DNA from: a virus
Reading direction: 5' to 3' (one strand)
Virus record (IMG/VR): IMGVR_UViG_3300045988_114451
Coordinates: 1 to 40,116 of that record
DNA: 40,116 nucleotides
Shown: positions 2,797-35,611 of the stretch, piece after piece
Position numbering within the stretch: position 1 is the first letter of the stretch
Layout of the letters: every line of letters begins with the position of its first letter
Notes under the pieces: model-generated
What the model was told of the DNA's origin: nothing
The model's input: only the letters and a program-made list of their open reading frames with translations
Databases searched by the model: none
Position numbers and translations under genes: made by a program

Positions 2797-3606
2797 TTAT
2801 TGAAATAAATTTGGTTGAATAACCGCCAATACCTTCTCTTTAGCCAGCTTATAAAAGTCCTTCTTAATCTCAAAGCCATACGCCTTGCGCCCACAATTCG
2901 CAGCCGCCAACAATGTCGTTCCGCTGCCCGCGCAAGGGTCTATCACGACATCGCCCTTGTCCGAAAACAACTCTATCAACCGCTCCAATAATTTCACAGG
3001 CTTCTGAGTGGGATGACATTTCGGCGTATCATTATCCACAACCCAATCCATACAGTTAAATACCATTCGTCCCTCGTTGTTGAATTTAGGGAGCATGTCC
3101 CGGTAGAGTATCAATCCATATTCGCAATTCCCCACGACCTTCATATTAGCCTTCAATACCTGCGCAGAGAAGTTCTTGCGGAAAACTAAAGGGATATATC
3201 TCTCAAGTCCATATCTGCGTCCCAAATCAATGTAATAGTGCATCTGCTCGAAAGGACAGAAGAGTATCATACAGGCTGCCCCCCCCTTGCGTTTGGAGCC
3301 TGCCATAGGCACATCGCCCTCTTCCCCCGTTTCGTCCTTTTTCAACGGCTTATCCTTACGAAGCATCTGTGAACAGAAGTGCATAAACTCCGCAGGACGG
3401 AAATCCTTGTCCGTGTCAAAGAATTGCTTTCCCGCCTTGTCGCTCTCACCTTTCTTGTTGTCGCCGTCTATGTACCACGCAGGATTGCTTGCATAAGCGT
3501 TTTCTCCGAGGTTATAGGGCACATCTGCTATGATAAGCTGTGCTTTCGGTATTCCGTAACTCTTGAAGTTCTGGAAATGGTCATTAAACAACTCTATATT
3601 TTTCAT
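2797..3606 (-). CDS. DNA N6-adenine or N4-cytosine methyltransferase, beta class (motif IV precedes motif I).
   Basis: IIADVPYNLG is a DPPY-type motif IV near the N-terminus. VIDPCAGSGTTLLAA is the FxGxG SAM motif near the C-terminus. The gene contains an in-frame G8 tract at comp(3279..3286). Confidence 0.85.
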   Translation of the reverse strand: MKNIELFNDHFQNFKSYGIPKAQLIIADVPYNLGENAYASNPAWYIDGDNKKGESDKAGKQFFDTDKDFRPAEFMHFCSQMLRKDKPLKKDETGEEGDVPMAGSKRKGGAACMILFCPFEQMHYYIDLGRRYGLERYIPLVFRKNFSAQVLKANMKVVGNCEYGLILYRDMLPKFNNEGRMVFNCMDWVVDNDTPKCHPTQKPVKLLERLIELFSDKGDVVIDPCAGSGTTLLAAANCGRKAYGFEIKKDFYKLAKEKVLAVIQPNLFQ

Positions 3607-3613
3607 ATCTCTA

Positions 3614-3829
3614 CTATTCTATATCAATGTAATACTCCGCAAATCGTTTTCCGTTGTGCTCGACAAGACGCATCTTCACCGGGTATCCCTCGTTCCGGAG
3701 TTCCCATATCCGTGCGCCAAGACGGAAACATCCGAATTGATTGAGCGCGTCAATGGGTGTCAGGCTGTACCCATTCAGCAGATGACGCAAGATGCGTTTC
3801 TTCTGCGAGTCTGTTGTGTTCTTTTCCAT
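3614..3829 (-). CDS. Small winged-helix/HTH DNA-binding protein.
   Basis: LTPIDALNQFGCFRLGARIWELRNEGYPV matches the short HTH family I recall as HTH_39 (from memory). Confidence 0.5.
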   Translation of the reverse strand: MEKNTTDSQKKRILRHLLNGYSLTPIDALNQFGCFRLGARIWELRNEGYPVKMRLVEHNGKRFAEYYIDIE

Positions 3830-3854
3830 AATTCAAAAGTTAAATGAAATTTCG

Positions 3855-3980
3855 TGGGGATGGAGGGAGTCGAACCCTCCGCTCAGATACGGACATCGTT
3901 CCGTGTTCCTACATATCCGGAGCCGCTTGCCTACCGTTAAGGAACTTTGCCCATATTGTTGCCCCGCAACCTGCATCCCC
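3855..3980 (-). ncRNA. tRNA-like RNA module with a perfect 7-bp acceptor-type stem and a canonical T-arm. At about 126 nt it is too long for a standard cloverleaf.
   Basis: The minus strand reads 5' GGGGATG...GAGGG-TTCGACT-CCCTC-CATCCCC-A 3'. CGGAT/ATCTG could form an anticodon-type stem placed 4 nt before the T-stem, but it encloses 26 nt. The 5' half carries about 35 extra nt. Confidence 0.4.
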
Positions 3981-4075
3981 GATTGCCGTCTGTTCCGGCT
4001 GTCACCCCGTCTGTCCGGAGCGTCCTGCTTATATGTATTTGGTATCTCTAACCGCGCGTCCCCGCGGGATTATTG

Positions 4076-4139
4076 TGCGTACGGAGGGACTTGAACCCTC
4101 GCCTCTCAATCGCGTGCCAGCCAACCGCACCGCGTCCGC
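4076..4139 (-). ncRNA. tRNA-like module with acceptor-like stem, good D-arm and T-arm, but only 13 nt where the anticodon arm should be.
   Basis: The minus strand reads GCGGACG-CG-GTGC-GGTTGGCTG-GCAC-GCGATTGAGAGGC-GAGGG-TTCAAGT-CCCTC-CGTACGC-A. The acceptor stem has one G.A mismatch. Confidence 0.35.
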
Positions 4140-4206
4140 ATCCCCCGTCTCTCCGAGGTGTCCAGTTAAACAATTAAAAACTATAACTACGCGCATCACT
4201 GCGGGC

Positions 4207-4422
4207 TTATATCCCATCGAAATTGAAGTATTCTTCGGTCACTTGTCCGGCTCCATCGCAATCGGGACAGGTCTCCTCGTGCAGGGCATAATCCCCAAGC
4301 CGTCCATTAAAGGCGATGTCATAAGCCTCGTTAACGGTCAACTCAATATCATTGCCTTCCTCATCTTCCCCGACCCAAAGGACGCCTTCGCCCTCACATC
4401 GCGGGCATTTACTCCTTTTCAT
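4207..4422 (-). CDS. Small zinc-finger protein with two DnaJ-type CxxCxGxG motifs.
   Basis: CPRCEGEG and CPDCDGAG. Confidence 0.65.
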   Translation of the reverse strand: MKRSKCPRCEGEGVLWVGEDEEGNDIELTVNEAYDIAFNGRLGDYALHEETCPDCDGAGQVTEEYFNFDGI

Positions 4423-4634
4423 TGTTCGTCCCTCCCATATACTTTATGATACAAAGCCTGCGCAGCCACGCCCACAAGTGCAAGCACCGCGAGGGAGCCG
4501 CATTTCAGGAGCGCGAACTCGCCCCAAGTCAATGGGCAGTCCGGCACCTCGTCCCCTATCAGGAAAAAGAACGAGATAAGCCCCAACACGGCTAACATAG
4601 CCATACAGACCTTGTAAATGATATTCGTTTTCAT
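4419..4634 (-). CDS. Small membrane protein (two predicted TM helices).
   Basis: Hydrophobic stretches VCMAMLAVLGLISFFFLI and GSLAVLALVGVAAQAL. There is a 4-nt overlap with the downstream gene. Confidence 0.6.
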   Translation of the reverse strand: MKTNIIYKVCMAMLAVLGLISFFFLIGDEVPDCPLTWGEFALLKCGSLAVLALVGVAAQALYHKVYGRDEQ

Positions 4635-4644
4635 AATTCAAATT

Positions 4645-4708
4645 TTAATAAAAATAAGCCGCGAGGTTTCGTTGTCAGTGACGGCTGCACAACTACTCCC
4701 TCGCGGCT
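4645..4708 (-). terminator. GC-rich 10-bp stem with a large loop followed by a U-run. It is terminator-like and forms part of a pseudoknot-capable element.
   Basis: agccgcgagg (4657..4666) pairs with cctcgcggct (4699..4708). On the minus strand the stem is followed by TTATTTTTATT. Confidence 0.4.
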
Positions 4709-4758
4709 CTCTTTCTCTCTTTCAATATCGTGCAGGCTGCCGTCACAACCTTAATTCG

Positions 4759-4830
4759 TAGCGGGGACAGGACTTGAACCTGCGTTCCCTTGTGTATGAA
4801 ACAAGTGAGATGCCACTTCTCCACCCCGCA
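4759..4830 (-). tRNA. tRNA with anticodon CAU (Met, or Ile2 if lysidine-modified). CCA is not encoded.
   Basis: Manual cloverleaf: TGCGGGG-TG-GAGA-AGTGGCA-TCTC-A-CTTGT-TTCATAC-ACAAG-GGAAC-GCAGG-TTCAAGT-CCTGT-CCCCGCT-A. All stems pair except position 1:72, which is U.U. Confidence 0.85.
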
Positions 4831-4877
4831 TTGTGTCGGACATCCTTGTCGTAACAACTTCCGTCCGATTACGAGTA

Positions 4878-4925
4878 CAAAGGTACAAACTTTTTTAATA
4901 TCTGCAAATTATTTTTCACTTTTTT
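4878..4925 (-). promoter_or_regulatory. Early promoter copy a (-33 TTTG, 19 nt, -7 TACCTTTG) with a conserved upstream GTGAAAAATAATTTGC block.
   Basis: The minus strand reads AAAAAAGTGAAAAATAATTTGCAGATATTAAAAAAGTTTGTACCTTTG. It lies about 45 nt upstream of tRNA-Met. Confidence 0.65.
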
Positions 4926-11562: not shown

Positions 11563-12066
11563 TCAGAATGTCAAAAAATTGTAAGATACCCCGACGCCGA
11601 TGTAGGGTGACAACAGCACCTGCCCGTCGTGCAGGGTCGCGCCATAGCCGACGTTCACGCCTATCCCCCACGGCCTGCGTTTCGTTCTTTCCGTAACGGT
11701 CTCCGTTATGGTTATAGTCTTCGGGTAAACCTCCATGTAGTCAAGTCTCGGCTCGTATCCGCTTATTATTGCCGTGTAGTTCGTGTCACGATAGGTTTTC
11801 TCCTCGCGGGGCAGGGAAACATACACCGTATCCCTCAAAACCTCCGTAACGGGGATTTTCAGCCTTATCGTGTCGGTCGTGCGTATGTATGTCGGGACGG
11901 GATTGTCCATGCGTATCGTGTCGTGCACGACGGTCGTGTCACGGATGACAACAGGCTCCGTGTCCGGATTGTGCCTTTCCGTGCATTGACGCACACCGAA
12001 AAGGGCGGCAAGTGCAAGCAGCGCACCCGCAAGCATAGAAAGCAGGCATTTAGTCATATTCTCCAT
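11563..12066 (-). CDS. Secreted or membrane-anchored beta-rich protein (possible outer-membrane or spanin-like lysis accessory).
   Basis: An N-terminal signal-like segment LLSMLAGALLALAALFG, and a C-terminal glycine/aromatic part WGIGVNVGYGA...YIGVGVSYNFLTF. Confidence 0.45.
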   Translation of the reverse strand: MENMTKCLLSMLAGALLALAALFGVRQCTERHNPDTEPVVIRDTTVVHDTIRMDNPVPTYIRTTDTIRLKIPVTEVLRDTVYVSLPREEKTYRDTNYTAIISGYEPRLDYMEVYPKTITITETVTERTKRRPWGIGVNVGYGATLHDGQVLLSPYIGVGVSYNFLTF

Positions 12067-12088: not shown

Positions 12089-12847
12089 TTATACTACAAT
12101 TTGTAGTACATTACGATTTATCGGATTTTCTCGCCCAAGGTTATCTGCATACCCCCATATACAACCAGCTGACTGCTGTATCTTTCCTGTTATAGCTTTT
12201 ATTATATTACTTGGATGAGCTTTGGATATTTTGGCTGCGTCCCGAATACTTCTAAAAGTAGTATAAGTGCCATCTGAAATACTTATGCACCAAACAGGCC
12301 TTCTGATAGTATCGTGATAATGACAATTTTCCCCAATATAACTAAATGTAAATCCTTTGGCAGAACCTTTTCTGTTACGGCAGATTGTAGCTATCCAGCT
12401 CTTCTGAATGCCGGTTGAATTCGCTGCATCTGTTATACTCGGATATGTAGCTACAAAAGTTCCATCTAACATATATTGATTTACTGGCAGACTTATAGTT
12501 TTACGCCTCCTTATCATTGCTGTCCCATAATTTACATTATACTTTACGGTACACCACTCAAGATTTTTGACGTAATTATTACTTGGATTTTCATCTTTGT
12601 GATTGACAACTGTATAATTATCTGGATTAGATATAAATGCAGTTGCAACCAATCTATGCACCCATACCTTATGAGTCTTTCCTTTATGGGTTAAATGCAC
12701 AGAAACATAACCTCTATTATCTTTAAATAATAGAAGATTTTTTGTTTTACCAGTCTTTTTATAGTTCAAACTTCGAACTTCCCCAATATCACTAACTTCA
12801 TATTTGCCGCCCCAGCCGACAATTGGTTTCCAAGTAACATTCTGCAT
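12089..12847 (-). mobile_element. Free-standing HNH homing endonuclease with a NUMOD4-like N-terminus and NUMOD1/IENR-like DNA-binding repeats.
   Basis: WKPIVGWGGKYEVSDIGEVRS, then VHRLVATAFISNP...VNHKDENPSNNYVKNLEW, then two SI.DAA... helices. The segment is visibly more AT-rich than its flanks. Confidence 0.8.
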
Positions 12848-33365: not shown

Positions 33366-34880
33366 TCAATTTATCCGTCTTATACCCTTGGACTTCTCCG
33401 TACCCGCCAGCTCACGCAGGTATATCTCGGAAAGCACATCCTCGATGTCATCGTGCCTGTTCGCGCGGAAATCCGAAAGGAAGTCACGCAGATGCCTGTA
33501 TGCGCTCTCCCACCGTTCCTCCCAGCCCGCGGGGAAAATAATCTGCTCGTTCACGTATGGCGCATAGGTCAGTATCTTGCTCTCCTTGTTCAGCTTCTGA
33601 TGGAAGCCGCGCAGCTCGCACCGCGTCTTGCGCATGATGTCCTTGCGGAACTGCTCGCCGCCGTTGTTGCCCTCAATCCACGCCCTCTGCGTGTTGTTCC
33701 GGTTGAGCATGTCCGGTATCAGCGTGCGCGTCACCTCCGTGCCCTTCTCCGTGTATATCATGTCCGTGACAAGCGCGTAATAGAACGGCTCCATCCGCCG
33801 CGTCCGCGCGTTGAACCGTCCGTGCGGACTCCGGTACACGTCATAGCATATCGAGCAGGTCTTGTCCTTTCCGCTGTCCGCGGGGTCGGTGTAGTTGCCG
33901 CGCCTGACGAACACGCCCCACTCGCCCTTGTCCGTGTATGTCTTGAACGGATGATACAGCATCGCCGCCGCATCGGACGGATTGCCCTGATAAAGGCAGG
34001 CGAAATTCACCGGGTCAAGCAGCCGCTCCCGCTCCATCTCCGCCTTTCCGTGACGCTCCGGCCAGAGCACCTCTCCCGGCTCGCGCGGGTCTATCGGGGT
34101 CGGCTCGCCCTCCTTGATTGCCGGGAAATTCAACACCGCCCACGCATCCGGCGGCAACCCATCCAGCTGCCCGATGTCCGTTATCACGACACACCTCTCC
34201 GACTCCCTGATGCGGCCGATGATGTCGTCCTTGTGCCACCGCGTGAACACAACCAACTCCTGCCCGCCGTTGCTCAGGCGCGACCGCAGGACGGTCGTGT
34301 ACCAGTTCCACGCCAAATCACGCACCAATGGCGAATTAGCCTCCGAATGGTCTTTATACAGGTCATCAAGGATAGCCACGTCCAACGGCAAGCCCGTAAG
34401 CGAGCCGCCGCGACCCACGGCACGCAACCCGCCGCCGCGACCGACCACCTCCGTGACCGTGGAATTGCAGGCATAGTCACACTTGCCCTCAACAGCCCTC
34501 GACTTCGCTATCTGCGTCAGGGGAAACAGCTCCGCATATTCGTCCGACGCCATTATCCTCTGCACGTCGCGGTTGAAGGTGCTCGCCAAATTCGCCGAAT
34601 AGGAACAGATGCCTATCTTCCTGTCCGGATTCAACCCCAAAATGAACGCCGGAAGTATTCGGCTCGCCCCTTCGGACTTTCCCGATTGAGGTGGGCAACT
34701 CACAATCATGCGCTTCACCTCACCCCTGGCGAACTTGTCCAGCACGGCATAATAAGTCCTGTGAAAATCCGTCATCACCGTCTGCGGCCTGACATAACGC
34801 GCGAAGCAGTCAAGCCTGCGCCTGCCCATATACACCAGCAAAGCATCCGCCATCTGCGGCGTCATACGCATATCACTCAT
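33366..34880 (-). CDS. terL: Terminase large subunit.
   Basis: Walker A-like SCPPQSGKSE and Walker B-like VAILDDLYKD, 504 aa, with a 4-nt overlap with the upstream small-subunit gene. Confidence 0.85.
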   Translation of the reverse strand: MSDMRMTPQMADALLVYMGRRRLDCFARYVRPQTVMTDFHRTYYAVLDKFARGEVKRMIVSCPPQSGKSEGASRILPAFILGLNPDRKIGICSYSANLASTFNRDVQRIMASDEYAELFPLTQIAKSRAVEGKCDYACNSTVTEVVGRGGGLRAVGRGGSLTGLPLDVAILDDLYKDHSEANSPLVRDLAWNWYTTVLRSRLSNGGQELVVFTRWHKDDIIGRIRESERCVVITDIGQLDGLPPDAWAVLNFPAIKEGEPTPIDPREPGEVLWPERHGKAEMERERLLDPVNFACLYQGNPSDAAAMLYHPFKTYTDKGEWGVFVRRGNYTDPADSGKDKTCSICYDVYRSPHGRFNARTRRMEPFYYALVTDMIYTEKGTEVTRTLIPDMLNRNNTQRAWIEGNNGGEQFRKDIMRKTRCELRGFHQKLNKESKILTYAPYVNEQIIFPAGWEERWESAYRHLRDFLSDFRANRHDDIEDVLSEIYLRELAGTEKSKGIRRIN

Positions 34881-35611
34881 AATCCCTCCCCCTCCGCGGG
34901 AGCACCATTCATACCTTCACCCTTATCCACAACGACGCCCTCGGCGGGCATCTCACGACGCGCACCCAAAAGCGCATCCGCCATCCGCGACAGCTGCTCC
35001 TCGGGTATACCGCTGAAATCATACGAACGCGACGCGCCGCCCTGACGAGCCGTGATGTCCACCTGCACCGGACTGTCCACACCCAACAACTTCGCACGAC
35101 GCTCCATTATTCGCAACAGCACGTCAAGAAACTTCGGATTGCCCACGCTGTCACGCACCGTCTCCGACACCTGTCCGTCCACCGTCTTCACCGTAACACG
35201 CTTCTCGCGGCTCCTGAGGTAGTCAAACCACGCCTCCTTCTCCAGCAAATCCAATTTCGCGCTCTCCTTCGCCACCAGCGTGTCAACCATACCGCTCTCG
35301 CGCATCTTACGCACCTCACCGTCCAGGACCCTCTGTATGTCACAACGCACACGCTCCGGACTGACACGGTACTCCAAGCCGTTGTCCGAAGCCAACCTGT
35401 TCACCTCATCCGCTATCTCCTTGTAACTCCATCCCTGCAGATACCTGCGCATCTCCACGACTCCGTCATACTCCTGCTGACGACGAGTGCGCTCACCCAC
35501 AGCCAACTTCTGAACACCACGTGGCTTCCGCTTTCTCCCCATACCAACCCTCTCACGCTCCCTTACCTCACCACGATACTTCTGCATATATCGCTCAACC
35601 GCCTTTCCCAT
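34877..35611 (-). CDS. terS: Terminase small subunit (HTH-containing).
   Basis: Position upstream of terL, and the GWSYKEIADEVNRL HTH-like segment. Confidence 0.55.
   Translation of the reverse strand: MGKAVERYMQKYRGEVRERERVGMGRKRKPRGVQKLAVGERTRRQQEYDGVVEMRRYLQGWSYKEIADEVNRLASDNGLEYRVSPERVRCDIQRVLDGEVRKMRESGMVDTLVAKESAKLDLLEKEAWFDYLRSREKRVTVKTVDGQVSETVRDSVGNPKFLDVLLRIMERRAKLLGVDSPVQVDITARQGGASRSYDFSGIPEEQLSRMADALLGARREMPAEGVVVDKGEGMNGAPAEGEGL

What the first reader, a model, noticed from the sequence alone, without database searches (positions are those of the whole stretch)
3830..4206. GC-rich non-coding island with two tRNA-like modules that do not fold into standard cloverleaves
No credible ORF lies between the Zn-finger gene and the HTH gene. 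The minus strand there shows two canonical T-arms, GAGGG-TTCAAGT-CCCTC and GAGGG-TTCGACT-CCCTC. The downstream module (3855..3980) has a perfect 7-bp acceptor pairing, GGGGATG with CATCCCC, and discriminator A, but 94 nt lie between the acceptor 5' strand and the T-stem. A CGGAT/ATCTG stem sits 4 nt before the T-stem, as an anticodon stem would, yet it encloses 26 nt. The first seven of these read A-U-G-U-A-G-G, so a GUA anticodon plus an insert is one possible reading. The upstream module (4076..4139) has an acceptor-like stem, a good D-arm (GTGC-GGTTGGCTG-GCAC) and a T-arm, but only 13 nt in place of the anticodon arm. Both modules are preceded by related sequences: GGGGATGC occurs twice (comp 4138..4145 and 3973..3980), and CTCGGAGAGACGGGG resembles CTCCGGACAGACGGGG. 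They could be intron- or insert-containing tRNAs, or tRNA mimics comparable in concept to bacterial and phage Y-RNA-like (YrlA) RNAs, or degenerate tRNA genes.
Basis: partly seen in the sequence, partly recalled or inferred. Interest (0 to 1): 0.7.

Follow-up and report, generated by a model that had tools for sequence, protein, structure and literature searches.

The report
Hairpin-led phage tRNA-mimic RNA cassettes
Between two phage genes lie two small RNA genes shaped like the top half of a tRNA but with no anticodon arm, each preceded by a conserved hairpin that turns out to be common in front of tRNAs and odd tRNA-like RNAs in many phages.

Summary
On the minus strand, 4076..4139 is a 64-nt tRNA-like RNA with acceptor, D-arm and T-arm but a 13-nt linker instead of an anticodon arm. 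It scores 29.1 bits on Rfam tRNA (threshold 29), and ARAGORN does not call it. 3855..3980 is a 126-nt RNA with a 7-bp acceptor, a T-arm and discriminator A. A long irregular arm stands where the anticodon arm would be, and its ends resemble the tRNA-like domain of tmRNA (23.5 bits, threshold 47).

Neither module is a decoding tRNA, an intron-containing tRNA, a tmRNA or a YrlA RNA. Module 1 recurs in five other phage contigs with compensatory stem changes and is far better conserved than its flanks. Module 2 is an internally deleted version of a 293-325-nt tRNA-ended RNA of Bacteroidales phages. In sister phages the same slot holds tRNA-Ser(GCU) or an anticodon-arm-deleted copy of it.

The "related preceding sequences" are a conserved leader hairpin, GUGACA-stem-GANAGA-stem. 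In an unbiased scan, 76 of 119 matches formed the stem, against about 2% expected by chance. The hairpin sits 3-12 nt upstream of canonical tRNAs and of 66-230-nt non-canonical tRNA-like RNAs, and also inside phage tmRNAs. It is absent from Rfam.

Most likely these are non-decoding tRNA mimics carried in mobile cassettes. Their molecular target is unknown.

The parts
4192..4203 (-). GNRA hairpin 1 (CGCA-GUGA-UGCG), just after the stop codon of the Zn-finger gene. It marks the upstream border of cassette 1.
   Evidence: Read. It is conserved with a compensatory A-U to U-A change in L001, L093 and L118 (alignment A3; counts).
4165..4191 (-). AU-rich spacer of cassette 1, a possible promoter region. 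It is the least conserved part of the unit.
   Evidence: Alignment. Spacer identity between relatives is 34-63%, against 84-95% for module 1. No sigma-70-type consensus match was found, so a promoter is inferred only.
4143..4164 (-). Leader hairpin 1 with its 5' flank: UGGACA-CCUCG-GAGAGA-CGGGG. The stem ends 3 nt before the 5' end of module 1.
   Evidence: Hairpin finder. The motif was shown to be structured and widespread.
4076..4139 (-). Module 1, a 64-nt tRNA-like RNA. Parts: acceptor 4133..4139 with 4077..4083 (G.A at 4-69), D-arm 4114..4130, 13-nt linker 4101..4113 in place of the anticodon arm, T-arm 4084..4100, discriminator A at 4076.
   Evidence: Rfam tRNA 29.1 bits against a gathering score of 29, with 6 nt in place of 15 anticodon-arm positions. 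Homologues occur in L001/L042, L093, L095, L118 and L119. 99% of cells are paired and two T-stem pairs covary. The L118 copy folds into the three-arm shape at minimum free energy.
4052..4067 (-). GNRA hairpin 2 (CGCG-GGGA-CGCG, extendable to CCGCG...CGCGG). It lies downstream of module 1 at the border of cassette 2.
   Evidence: Read. It aligns with CGCA-GUGA-UGCG in L001, L093, L104 and L117 and with GCGUA-GUGA-UACGC in L099. The terminator scan lists the stem, read on the + strand.
3985..4028 (-). Double leader hairpin of cassette 2: GGACG-CUCCG-GACAGA-CGGGG followed by UGACA-GCCG-GAACAGA-CGGC. It ends 4 nt before module 2.
   Evidence: The same double hairpin precedes tRNA-Ser in L093/L095, the truncated tRNA-Ser in L001 and the 293-325-nt RNAs in L099-L117.
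3855..3980 (-). Module 2, a 126-nt tRNA-ended RNA. Parts: acceptor 3974..3980 with 3856..3862, small hairpin GUUGC-GGG-GCAAC at 3958..3970, long arm (AUAUGGGCA/UGUCCGUAU plus GUUCC/GGAAC), T-arm 3863..3879, discriminator A at 3855.
   Evidence: Fold (-48.8 kcal/mol, z -2.05). Rfam tmRNA 23.5 bits, ends only. It shares its first 10 nt and last ~55 nt with the 293-325-nt RNAs. The small hairpin covaries: GUUGC/GCAAC, ACCGC/GCGGU and GCCGC/GCGGC.
4207..4422 (-). Upstream neighbour: a 71-aa CXXCXGXG zinc-finger protein. Context only.
   Evidence: Weak, sub-threshold Pfam DnaJ_CXXCXGXG match. It is conserved upstream of cassette 1 in L001, L093 and L095 but not in L118 or the L099-type phages.
3614..3829 (-). 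Downstream neighbour: a 71-aa winged-helix protein (HTH_39). Context only.
   Evidence: Pfam HTH_39, E 1.5e-12. Of 32 related loci, only L001 carries the cassettes upstream of it.
4758..4830 (-). Ordinary tRNA-Met(CAU), the only canonical tRNA in the window. No leader hairpin was found in front of it.
   Evidence: ARAGORN. Rfam 56.8 bits. The hairpin finder found only three hairpins in the window, all within 3985..4158.

Best explanation
The island is a tandem pair of small-RNA cassettes of a tailed phage of Bacteroidales. Each cassette has four parts:
- a GNRA hairpin;
- an AU-rich spacer, probably holding the promoter;
- one or two copies of a conserved leader hairpin, (U)GRCA + 4-5-bp stem + GANAGA loop;
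- 3-4 nt later, an RNA with the acceptor/T-arm/elbow half of a tRNA but no anticodon stem-loop.

Module 1 is a 64-nt 'top-half' tRNA mimic. Module 2 is a shortened member of a family of 293-325-nt RNAs whose ends form a tRNA-like, tmRNA-TLD-like domain.

Shown here:
- the anatomy of both modules;
- their conservation with compensatory changes;
- the exchangeability of the cargo behind the same leader (tRNA-Ser, truncated tRNA-Ser, mini RNA, long RNA);
- the hairpin is a real, widespread structured motif placed just upstream of tRNAs and aberrant tRNA-like RNAs.

Inferred:
- The precursors are cut by RNase P just after the hairpin, then trimmed and CCA-tailed like tRNAs.
- This gives stable L-shaped RNAs that cannot decode.
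- They act through the acceptor/T-arm/elbow surface. One possibility is that they are decoys for a tRNA-binding host or defence factor. The other is that they are natural tRNA scaffolds carrying a variable domain.
- The leader hairpin is a recognition or regulatory module shared by such phage RNA units.
For: Detector results: Rfam tRNA matches module 1 at threshold with the anticodon arm missing. The tmRNA model matches only the ends of module 2. ARAGORN is negative.

Module 1 conservation:
- It occurs in L001/L042, L093, L095, L118 and L119. L118 and L119 are 56-65-kb phages with different neighbouring genes.
- In the alignment, 99% of cells are paired, against 34-59% for slid controls. Two T-stem pairs and one GNRA-hairpin pair change on both sides.
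- Module identity is 84-95%, against 34-63% for the adjacent spacer.
- Substitutions fall in the linker, in T-loop position 57 or as compensatory pairs.

Independent second case: L001:2450-2515 is tRNA-Ser(GCU) of L093 with its anticodon and variable arms replaced by 12 nt. Its T-stem is compensated, GGAGG/CCUCC to GAAGG/CCUUC.

Module 2 family: 11 distinct long RNAs show compensatory changes in the acceptor (UA/CG/UG), the small hairpin and an inner stem. The window copy keeps the ends and adds three covarying pairs in the small hairpin.

Leader hairpin:
- With only GTGACA..G-GAAAGA-C fixed, 76 of 119 matches pair all four free stem positions (about 2% expected). There are 28 distinct stem pairs.
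- 15 of 73 distinct hairpins are followed within 3-12 nt by a perfect acceptor plus T-arm. Random windows give 3 of 1460, and non-hairpin matches 1 of 42.
- About half of these are canonical tRNAs. The rest are 66-230-nt tRNA-like RNAs that ARAGORN rejects, apart from L226, which it calls tRNA-???.
Against: - There are no expression data. Promoters, processing and stability are all inferred.
- The window's module 1 carries a G.A mismatch in the acceptor and folds no better than shuffled sequence (z +1.25 to +1.77).
- Module 2 is an internally deleted copy of a longer RNA and may have lost function.
- The module 1 set has only four distinct sequences, and the long-RNA set is closely related (83% mean column identity). 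Covariation therefore rests on few events.
- Module 1 plus its leader may look conserved because the cassette was transferred recently, not because of selection.
- No partner protein is evident in the 30 window ORFs scanned.
- The decoy target is unspecified.
- NCBI's pipeline annotates a similar E. coli prophage element as a pseudogenic tRNA.
Confidence: 0.55

Rival explanations
1. Decaying tRNA genes. The slot once held ordinary phage tRNAs, such as tRNA-Ser and a tRNA-Leu-like gene. Deletions removed or scrambled the anticodon region, and the remains are drifting pseudogenes with no function.
For: - Sister phages L093 and L095 hold an intact tRNA-Ser(GCU) in the module 2 slot.
- L001 has a deletion derivative of that tRNA.
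- The window's module 1 has an acceptor mismatch and a poor fold.
- Module 2 is an internally deleted copy of a longer RNA.
- PGAP labels a comparable 113-nt element in E. coli E2348/69 'pseudogenic tRNA-Gly'.
Against: - Stems are kept by compensatory changes after the anticodon arm was lost.
- Module 1 is 84-95% identical across phages whose adjacent spacers are 34-63% identical.
- The same pattern recurs independently in unrelated phages. The acceptor, D-arm and T-arm stay intact and only the anticodon domain is altered, and the leader hairpin is retained.
- Random decay should hit all arms.
Confidence: 0.2
2. Processing punctuation. The tRNA-like folds serve only as RNase P / RNase Z cleavage signals. 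They define the ends of neighbouring RNAs, that is the released hairpin leader or the downstream HTH mRNA, as with MALAT1-mascRNA or the MHV68 tRNA-miRNA units. The tRNA-like product itself has no function.
For: - The hairpin always sits 2-12 nt upstream of the acceptor 5' end, which is where RNase P cuts.
- Module 2 ends 25 nt before the HTH start codon.
- Only the acceptor/T-arm half, which is the RNase P/Z substrate determinant (established knowledge), is conserved.
Against: - A D-arm and an intact elbow are kept although RNase P/Z substrates need only the acceptor-T minihelix.
- A 270-nt conserved internal domain in the long relatives is not explained.
- Module 1 in L118 is followed by a hairpin and no nearby gene start.
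Confidence: 0.13
3. tmRNA-derived RNA. Module 2 and its long relatives are divergent phage tmRNAs or tmRNA mimics. They would enter stalled ribosomes with SmpB, either tagging proteins or blocking host trans-translation.
For: - The Rfam tmRNA model is the best hit for module 2 (23.5 bits) and hits L099 at 15.7 bits.
- The architecture resembles tmRNA: acceptor plus T-arm plus a long helix in place of the anticodon arm.
- The same leader hairpins occur inside bona fide phage tmRNAs. These score 65.9 and 63.9 bits in L109 and L110, above the gathering score, and 36.7 bits in L114. ARAGORN predicts a tag in all three.
Against: - Scores are far below the gathering score of 47.
- ARAGORN finds no tmRNA at default thresholds.
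- The 3-70 pair is G-C, not the G.U needed for alanine charging.
- No reading frame is conserved across L099, L104, L107, L112 and L117.
- Single-base indels occur in the internal region.
- The 126-nt window copy has no room for a tag and pseudoknots.
Confidence: 0.08
4. Insert- or intron-containing decoding tRNAs, the first reader's GUA-plus-insert reading. After removal of an insert the RNAs would become normal tRNAs.
For: - The CGGAU/AUCUG stem sits 4 nt before the T-stem, as an anticodon stem would.
- ARAGORN at a relaxed threshold proposes a tRNA with a 53-nt intron.
Against: - ARAGORN with the intron option finds nothing at default thresholds.
- Relaxed calls give His, Cys, His, Arg and Ser for homologous RNAs.
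- No group I intron match appeared at E<=10.
- The proposed stem is not in the minimum-energy fold.
- Module 1 has no insert at all, just a 13-nt linker.
- No splicing or ligation enzyme was found in the 30 ORFs scanned.
Confidence: 0.04

Closest known systems
Phage-encoded tRNAs and 'pseudogenic tRNAs' as annotated by genome pipelines
   Same: Acceptor stem, D-arm, T-arm with a UUCRANU loop and discriminator base. They sit in the same genomic slot as a real tRNA-Ser in sister phages. The T-arm and acceptor of module 2 are identical over 24 nt to phage tRNA-Leu(UAA) genes. PGAP calls a similar 113-nt E. coli prophage element a pseudogenic tRNA-Gly.
   Different: There is no anticodon stem-loop. 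ARAGORN does not call them. Position 8 is C, not U. The stems are kept by compensatory changes although the decoding part is gone.
tRNA-like domain of tmRNA (Rfam RF00023)
   Same: Module 2 and its long relatives have a 7-bp acceptor, a T-arm and a long helix where the anticodon arm would be. The tmRNA model is their best Rfam hit. They share the leader-hairpin module with real phage tmRNAs.
   Different: The 3-70 pair is G-C, there is no conserved tag frame, no pseudoknots were recognised, and scores are half the gathering score or less.
Eukaryotic and viral tRNA-like processing modules: mascRNA from MALAT1, and MHV68 tRNA-like/miRNA units (from established knowledge)
   Same: Short tRNA-shaped RNAs with a reduced anticodon region, recognised by tRNA-processing enzymes and not used for decoding. 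The Rfam mascRNA model gives a weak hit to module 1 (21.7 bits).
   Different: The hit is below the gathering score of 42.5. The setting is bacterial phages, with a conserved upstream hairpin, and there is no evidence yet of processing.
YrlA / bacterial Y-RNA tRNA mimics
   Same: The concept is shared: a non-decoding RNA that copies the acceptor/T/D part of a tRNA. These are also found in phages (established knowledge).
   Different: In YrlA the RNA ends form the Ro-binding stem and the acceptor is closed. Here the ends are at the acceptor. No Rfam hit appeared at E<=10, and no Ro/Rsr gene was seen in the ORFs scanned.
Engineered 'tRNA scaffold' for recombinant RNA expression, and T4 stable RNAs C and D encoded in its tRNA cluster (both from memory, not tested)
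   Same: A tRNA body with the anticodon arm replaced by another structured RNA, giving tRNA-type processing and stability. This matches the 94-325-nt relatives whose inserts vary in length on one scaffold.
   Different: The scaffold is an artificial design. For the natural phage RNAs here, no function of the inserted domain is known, and module 1 carries no insert.
boxB-type hairpins of lambdoid nut sites, and PeSL 'promoter-stem-loop' mobile regulatory cassettes of T4-type phages (from memory)
   Same: The leader hairpin has a 5-bp stem and a purine-rich GNRA-like loop (GANAGA, compare lambda nutR GAAGA). It lies in early operons of temperate phages near the repressor gene. It flanks small accessory units whose cargo is exchanged between relatives, as proposed for PeSLs.
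   Different: The sequence and the fixed GUGACA flank differ from any nut site. It occurs directly in front of tRNAs, inside tmRNAs, and in phages of many phyla. No N-like protein or recombination event has been shown.

Membership tests
Canonical tRNA (Rfam RF00005 / ARAGORN) | 7-bp acceptor stem plus discriminator base | tested here: met
   Module 2 has 7 of 7 pairs plus A. Module 1 has 6 of 7 in the window and 7 of 7 in L001, L093 and L118.
Canonical tRNA (Rfam RF00005 / ARAGORN) | T-arm: 5-bp stem with a 7-nt UUCRANU loop | tested here: met
   GAGGG-UUCAAGU-CCCUC and GAGGG-UUCGACU-CCCUC. The stem covaries in module 1 homologues.
Canonical tRNA (Rfam RF00005 / ARAGORN) | Anticodon arm: 5-bp stem with a 7-nt loop carrying an anticodon | tested here: not met
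   Module 1 has a 13-nt unpaired linker, and Rfam aligns 6 nt to 15 model positions. Module 2 has about 70 nt of other structure. ARAGORN makes no call at default thresholds and gives inconsistent anticodons when relaxed.
Canonical tRNA (Rfam RF00005 / ARAGORN) | Score at or above the curated threshold | tested here: inconclusive
   Module 1 scores 29.1 bits against a gathering score of 29, so borderline. Module 2 has no tRNA hit listed; a lower-scoring tRNA hit under the tmRNA match would have been dropped, as both belong to one clan.
tmRNA (RF00023) | tRNA-like domain formed by the 5' and 3' ends, with a long helix replacing the anticodon arm | tested here: met
   Module 2 fold. The long relatives have long-range helices GUUCAUCG/CGAUGAAC and CUCAUC/GAUGAG.
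tmRNA (RF00023) | G3.U70 alanine identity pair | tested here: not met
   The pair is G3-C70 in the window and in all 11 long relatives.
tmRNA (RF00023) | Internal tag reading frame with a resume codon and a stop | tested here: not met
   Three-frame translation of five relatives shows no conserved frame, and indels shift frames. ARAGORN reports no tmRNA at default thresholds.
tmRNA (RF00023) | Score at or above the gathering score of 47 | tested here: not met
   23.5 bits for the window and 15.7 bits for L099. The genuine phage tmRNAs L109 and L110 score 65.9 and 63.9 bits.
YrlA / Y RNA | Match to the Rfam Y-RNA/YrlA models, a Ro-binding stem formed by the RNA ends, and a nearby rsr gene | tested here: not met
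   No such hit at E<=10 in 3700..4900. The ends form the acceptor, not a Ro-binding stem. No Ro-like protein was found among the 30 ORFs scanned; this scan was partial.
tRNA interrupted by a group I intron | Group I intron core inside the anticodon loop, with exons that form one consistent tRNA | tested here: not met
   No Intron_gpI hit at E<=10. Exon and anticodon calls differ among homologues.
attP / integration-site tRNA fragment | Only the 3' part of a host tRNA or tmRNA gene, next to an integrase | tested here: not met
   Both acceptor strands and the D-arm are present. No integrase domain was found in any ORF of at least 300 aa that was scanned. Identity to a host tRNA was not tested.
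Hairpin-led phage tRNA / tRNA-like cassettes (class defined here) | Leader hairpin, (U)GRCA + 4-5-bp stem + GANAGA loop, ending 2-12 nt before the 5' acceptor strand of a tRNA-shaped RNA on the same strand | tested here: met
   Window gaps are 3 nt and 4 nt. The class is supported by 76 of 119 paired stems and 15 of 73 followed by acceptor plus T-arm, against 3 of 1460 in controls.

The most novel reading that the evidence does not exclude
The window would be one instance of a large, undescribed class of phage small-RNA units. These would be tRNA bodies whose anticodon arm has been deleted or replaced by variable structured domains of 13 to about 270 nt. All would be tagged by one universal 23-nt leader hairpin (GUGACA-stem-GANAGA-stem-A).

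The same hairpin is built into phage tmRNAs and sits in early operons and moron-like units of phages infecting Bacteroidales, enterobacteria, Pseudomonas and cyanobacteria, and in GC-rich soil contigs. The hairpin would be the recognition site of a conserved machine, for example RNA polymerase or an antitermination factor, or an RNA-processing or RNA-protecting protein.

The anticodon-less tRNA mimics would be chargeable but non-decoding. Several of the non-canonical RNAs in other phages carry tRNA-Leu-type D-arms; these, both window modules and L001's tRNA-Ser derivative have discriminator A. Leu and Ser are identities that synthetases read without the anticodon. Alternatively they would be uncleavable decoys that blunt tRNA-directed host defences.
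Probability: 0.35. Interest if true: 0.85.

Novelty: new variant of a known kind. Interest (0 to 1): 0.68.

Why it matters
Phage tRNA genes are usually read as codon-usage helpers or, more recently, as replacements for tRNAs destroyed by host defences. This locus shows that phages also keep tRNA-shaped RNAs that cannot decode. Standard tRNA finders miss them, and annotation pipelines label them pseudogenes.

The shared leader hairpin gives a simple sequence handle for finding such units and other phage small RNAs across metagenomes. It occurs in cultured phages and in a prophage of E. coli E2348/69, so the class can be tested directly.

If these RNAs are decoys or natural tRNA scaffolds, they would add a new layer to phage-host conflict over the translation machinery. 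They could also offer ready-made stable RNA scaffolds.

Tried and rejected
1. GenBank phage search with the 1.3-kb region: no match.
2. Searching the 32 loci that encode the HTH neighbour: only L001 carries the cassettes.
3. Tag-peptide search in the long RNAs: no conserved frame. Relaxed ARAGORN 'permuted tmRNA' calls were inconsistent and were discarded.
4. Intron-containing tRNA: rejected.
5. Group I intron, RNase P RNA, YrlA and other Rfam families: nothing at gathering or at E<=10 beyond the end-only tmRNA and tRNA hits.
6. The hairpin as a sigma-70 promoter, with GTGACA as a -35 box. The logo shows no -10 box or other conserved flank, and tRNAs start 4-12 nt after the hairpin. Rejected.
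7. The hairpin as HK022 put RNA. The put paper describes a 70-nt two-stem element, its text holds no such sequence, and BLAST of the mEp390 element did not hit HK022. Not supported.
8. The hairpin as the missing anticodon arm of a rearranged tRNA. Rejected because it also precedes complete tRNAs.
9. Literature searches for phage tmRNA-like RNAs, anticodon-less tRNA-like RNAs and the hairpin sequence found nothing specific. One survey lists generic 'tRNA-like' candidate RNAs in phages (PMC10690425).
Full report
**1. What is in the sequence**

Both T-arms are there. Module 2 has the perfect 7-bp acceptor GGGGAUG/CAUCCCC with discriminator A (3855..3980, 126 nt, 94 nt between the acceptor 5' strand and the T-stem). 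The CGGAU/AUCUG stem encloses 26 nt. Module 1 has the D-arm and the 13-nt linker (4076..4139, 64 nt). GGGGAUGC is duplicated, and two related 15-16-mers lie upstream. No credible ORF fills the gap between the zinc-finger gene (4207..4422) and the HTH_39 gene (3614..3829).

**2. Standard detectors**

- ARAGORN finds only tRNA-Met at 4758..4830.
- With introns allowed it finds nothing in the island at default thresholds. At relaxed thresholds it gives mutually inconsistent calls for homologous RNAs: His, Cys, His, Arg and Ser.
- Rfam at gathering thresholds reports module 1 as tRNA at 29.1 bits against a threshold of 29. The anticodon arm is collapsed to 6 nt.
- A permissive Rfam search adds a tmRNA hit to module 2 (23.5 bits, threshold 47) that aligns only the acceptor and T-arm. 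It also adds a weak mascRNA hit to module 1 (21.7 bits, threshold 42.5). There is no Y-RNA/YrlA or group I intron hit at E<=10.
- Module 2 folds into acceptor, a small hairpin GUUGC-GGG-GCAAC, a long arm and a T-arm (-48.8 kcal/mol, z -2.05).
- The window's module 1 does not fold better than shuffled sequence. It has a G.A mismatch at acceptor pair 4-69.

**3. Module 1 elsewhere**

The same RNA occurs in L001/L042, L093 and L095 (40-kb relatives of the window phage). It also occurs in L118 and L119, which are 56-65-kb phages with different neighbouring genes.

- In all of these the acceptor is perfect (GCGGACG/CGUCCGC).
- The T-stem switches between GAGGG/CCCUC and GGAGG/CCUCC, so two pairs change on both sides.
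- 99% of cells are paired, against 34-59% when the partners are slid.
- The L118 copy folds at minimum free energy into exactly the three-arm shape.
- Module 1 is 84-95% identical between phages, while the AU-rich spacer a few bases upstream is 34-63% identical.
- Variable positions lie in the 13-nt linker, in T-loop position 57, or are compensatory.

**4. The module 2 slot**

Behind the same double leader, L093 and L095 carry an ordinary tRNA-Ser(GCU). L001 carries that tRNA-Ser with the anticodon and variable arms replaced by 12 nt, and its T-stem is re-paired (GGAGG/CCUCC to GAAGG/CCUUC). This is a second, independent anticodon-arm-less tRNA-like RNA. The slot therefore accepts different cargos.

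**5. The family of module 2**

A 24-nt pattern from the 3' end of module 2 found ordinary phage tRNA-Leu(UAA) genes (L101, L103, L106). It also found a set of 293-319-nt RNAs that start GGGGAUGCAG and end like module 2 (L099, L100, L102, L104, L105). More copies came from metagenomes and from a Bacteroidales MAG of Hadza gut, the longest 325 nt (L107, L108, L112, L115-L117). This points to a Bacteroidales host.

- They match no Rfam family at gathering thresholds, and ARAGORN does not call them.
- RNAalifold on 11 distinct copies gives 85 pairs. These include long-range helices GUUCAUCG/CGAUGAAC and CUCAUC/GAUGAG. Compensatory changes occur in the acceptor (U-A, C-G, U-G), the small 5' hairpin and an inner stem.
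- No reading frame is conserved, and the 3-70 pair is G-C. They are therefore not tmRNAs in the functional sense.
- The window's 126-nt RNA keeps the first 10 nt, the covarying small hairpin (GUUGC/GCAAC against ACCGC/GCGGU and GCCGC/GCGGC), the last ~55 nt and scraps of the interior. It is an internally deleted, miniaturised member.

**6. The 'related preceding sequences' are a conserved leader hairpin**

Each module is preceded by (U)GRCA + 4-5-bp stem + GANAGA (or a 7-nt variant) + stem. Module 1 has one copy and module 2 has two. The last stem ends 3-4 nt before the acceptor. The same double hairpin precedes tRNA-Ser in L093 and the long RNAs.

Most of the apparently random viral hits to CTCCGGANAGACGGGG also carried the GUGACA-type flank. 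Several lay 4-8 nt upstream of a tRNA.

An unbiased test fixed only GTGACA, the closing G and C, and the loop GAAAGA:
- 76 of 119 matches pair all four unconstrained stem positions, against about 2% expected. There are 28 distinct stem sequence pairs.
- The logo shows a self-contained 23-nt motif ending in A, with no conserved flanks and hence no promoter boxes.
- 15 of 73 distinct hairpins are followed within 3-12 nt by a perfect 7-bp acceptor plus T-arm. Random windows give 3 of 1460, and matches without a stem 1 of 42.
- About half of these are canonical tRNAs (Met, Gly, Cys, Leu, Asn, Thr; ARAGORN adds Trp and Gln from hairpins the strict filter missed). The others are 66-230-nt tRNA-like RNAs with altered anticodon regions that ARAGORN rejects, apart from L226, which it calls tRNA-??? 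(L138, L153, L160, L177, L198, L226, L229, L233). L054 holds a further 157-nt example from the earlier set.
- One acceptor (AGUCAGG/CCUGACU) appears on RNAs of 66, 94 and 126 nt with covarying T-stems. This mirrors the mini/long pair seen here.

**7. The hairpin in other settings**

- In GC-rich soil contigs, two or three copies lie inside phage tmRNAs between the tag stop and the 3' tRNA-like domain. L109 and L110 score 65.9 and 63.9 bits on Rfam, and ARAGORN predicts a tag ATDTVAAEAADGIAALERMLADEALVLA*. L114 scores 36.7 bits, below the gathering score, but ARAGORN also calls it a tmRNA with a tag.
- The hairpin is present but unannotated in cultured phages. In Pseudomonas phage Medea1 and lambdoid mEp390 it lies in the early region next to the repressor gene. 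In epsilon15-like phages (phiV10, SPN1S, Tyrion) it lies in a small opposite-strand unit between the terminase and portal genes.
- In the E. coli E2348/69 prophage it lies 73 nt upstream of a 113-nt element that PGAP calls 'pseudogenic tRNA-Gly'. That element has normal acceptor, D and T arms and a ~57-nt anticodon region.
- No Rfam family covers the hairpin or the RNAs behind it.

**8. Context in the window**

The window is a siphovirus-like genome. It encodes dUTPase, two DNA methylases, a Gp157-like protein, a Rad52-like protein, an HNH-NUMOD homing endonuclease, a tape measure protein, portal, major head protein and large terminase. Thirty ORFs were scanned, and no integrase, RNA ligase, SmpB-like or Ro-like protein was seen. 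An attP remnant or a dedicated partner enzyme is therefore not supported. Each cassette is bordered by a GNRA hairpin that also covaries: CGCA-GUGA-UGCG, CGCG-GGGA-CGCG, CGCU-GUGA-AGCG and GCGUA-GUGA-UACGC.

**9. Interpretation**

Shown:
- two tRNA-shaped, anticodon-less RNA genes;
- stems maintained by compensatory change;
- cargo that is exchangeable behind a conserved structured leader;
- membership in a widespread class of hairpin-led tRNA/tRNA-like units.

Inferred:
- transcription from the AU-rich spacer;
- RNase P cleavage just after the hairpin, then 3' trimming and CCA addition;
- a function that depends on the acceptor/T-arm/elbow surface and not on decoding. That function would be either a decoy for a tRNA-binding factor or a natural tRNA scaffold.

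I put 0.55 on this reading. The main rival is plain decay of tRNA genes (0.20). It fits the window's own slightly damaged copies but not the selective loss of only the anticodon domain, the compensatory changes, or the recurrence in unrelated phages. Further rivals are processing punctuation (0.13), a tmRNA-like ribosome role (0.08) and an insert-containing decoding tRNA (0.04).

**10. Comparison with known systems, and novelty**

These RNAs work like known tRNA mimics (mascRNA, MHV68 tRNA-like RNAs, YrlA, the tmRNA tRNA-like domain) but fail the defining tests of each family (see the membership table). Literature searches found no description of anticodon-less phage tRNA-like RNAs or of the hairpin. 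A large survey mentions generic 'tRNA-like' candidate RNAs in phages without detail (PMC10690425).

I therefore file the locus as a new variant of a known kind.

**11. Limits**

- There are no expression data.
- The module 1 alignment is small (four distinct sequences).
- The long RNAs are closely related to one another.
- The hairpin's partner and the mimics' target are unknown.

Noticed in passing
Viral-contig loci L120-L238 (for example L126:7983-8000, L169:9511-9528, L185:3124-3141); also window 3985..4028 and 4143..4164 (-): There is a self-contained 23-nt hairpin motif, GUGACA + 5-bp stem + GAAAGA (also GAGAGA, GACAGA or 7-nt loops) + stem + A. With only the flank and loop fixed, 76 of 119 matches have fully paired stems, with 28 distinct stem pairs. 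It is not in Rfam and is not annotated in any record inspected. Its function is unknown.
   Followed up: partly
L109:71-420(+), L110:2501-2850(-), L114:972-1327(+): These GC-rich soil phage-like contigs encode tmRNAs with unusually long 28-residue tags (ATDTVAAEAADGIAALERMLADEALVLA*). The gene lies just upstream of a prohead-protease-like ORF. L109 and L110 score 65.9 and 63.9 bits on Rfam; L114 scores 36.7, below the gathering score, but ARAGORN calls it. Two or three copies of the leader hairpin stand where pseudoknots 2-4 normally are.
   Followed up: partly
L243 (E. coli E2348/69, NC_011601.1 2836949-2837169): hairpin at 3001-3036, tRNA-like at 3109-3221: An epsilon15-like prophage of a model EPEC strain has the leader hairpin. 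73 nt downstream lies a 113-nt 'pseudogenic tRNA-Gly' with intact acceptor, D and T arms and a ~57-nt anticodon region. This gives an experimentally tractable member of the class.
   Followed up: partly
L239 (phage mEp390): 2786-2812 and 3000-3023: Two leader hairpins lie about 210 nt apart, downstream of the cI-like repressor in the leftward early operon. Each is followed by a further stem-loop. The first lies inside the annotated 80-aa CDS gp36, which may therefore be a mis-call. The position recalls nut/put sites, but no sequence relation to them was found.
   Followed up: partly
L240 (Pseudomonas phage Medea1): 2501-2547 to about 2790, and about 2782-2860: The hairpin opens a ~270-nt unannotated intergenic stretch that ends in a typical hairpin plus U-tract terminator. 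A tRNA(CAU)-like sequence ending in CCA follows. Neither is annotated in the record.
   Followed up: no
L054(-) just downstream of the hairpin at 11770-11785; L153(-), L138(+), L177(-), L198(+), L229(-): Unrelated phages carry hairpin-led RNAs of 100-230 nt with a perfect acceptor and T-arm. Several have a tRNA-Leu-type D-arm (UGGCGGAAUGGCAAACGC), and the discriminator is A. ARAGORN does not call them. They may be chargeable without an anticodon.
   Followed up: partly
L082:5304-5381(-): A hairpin-led tRNA scores 46.8 bits on Rfam tRNA, but ARAGORN does not call it. Its anticodon region looks irregular.
   Followed up: no
window 12089..12847 (-): An HNH endonuclease with NUMOD1 and NUMOD4 domains (homing-endonuclease type) is encoded among the phage genes. 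This fits a genome that exchanges small cassettes.
   Followed up: no
window 34877..35611 (-): The ORF directly upstream of the large terminase matches PHROG 645, labelled 'Rnase E' (E 2.9e-15). Its position suggests a small terminase subunit, so the label may mislead.
   Followed up: no
L001:2540-3000(+): In L001 an extra ~150-aa ORF lies between the truncated tRNA-Ser and the HTH gene. It starts MKHLITIIAAVLITATAFGQ, which looks like a signal peptide. The window lacks it, which is another sign that this junction is a hot spot for accessory insertions.
   Followed up: no
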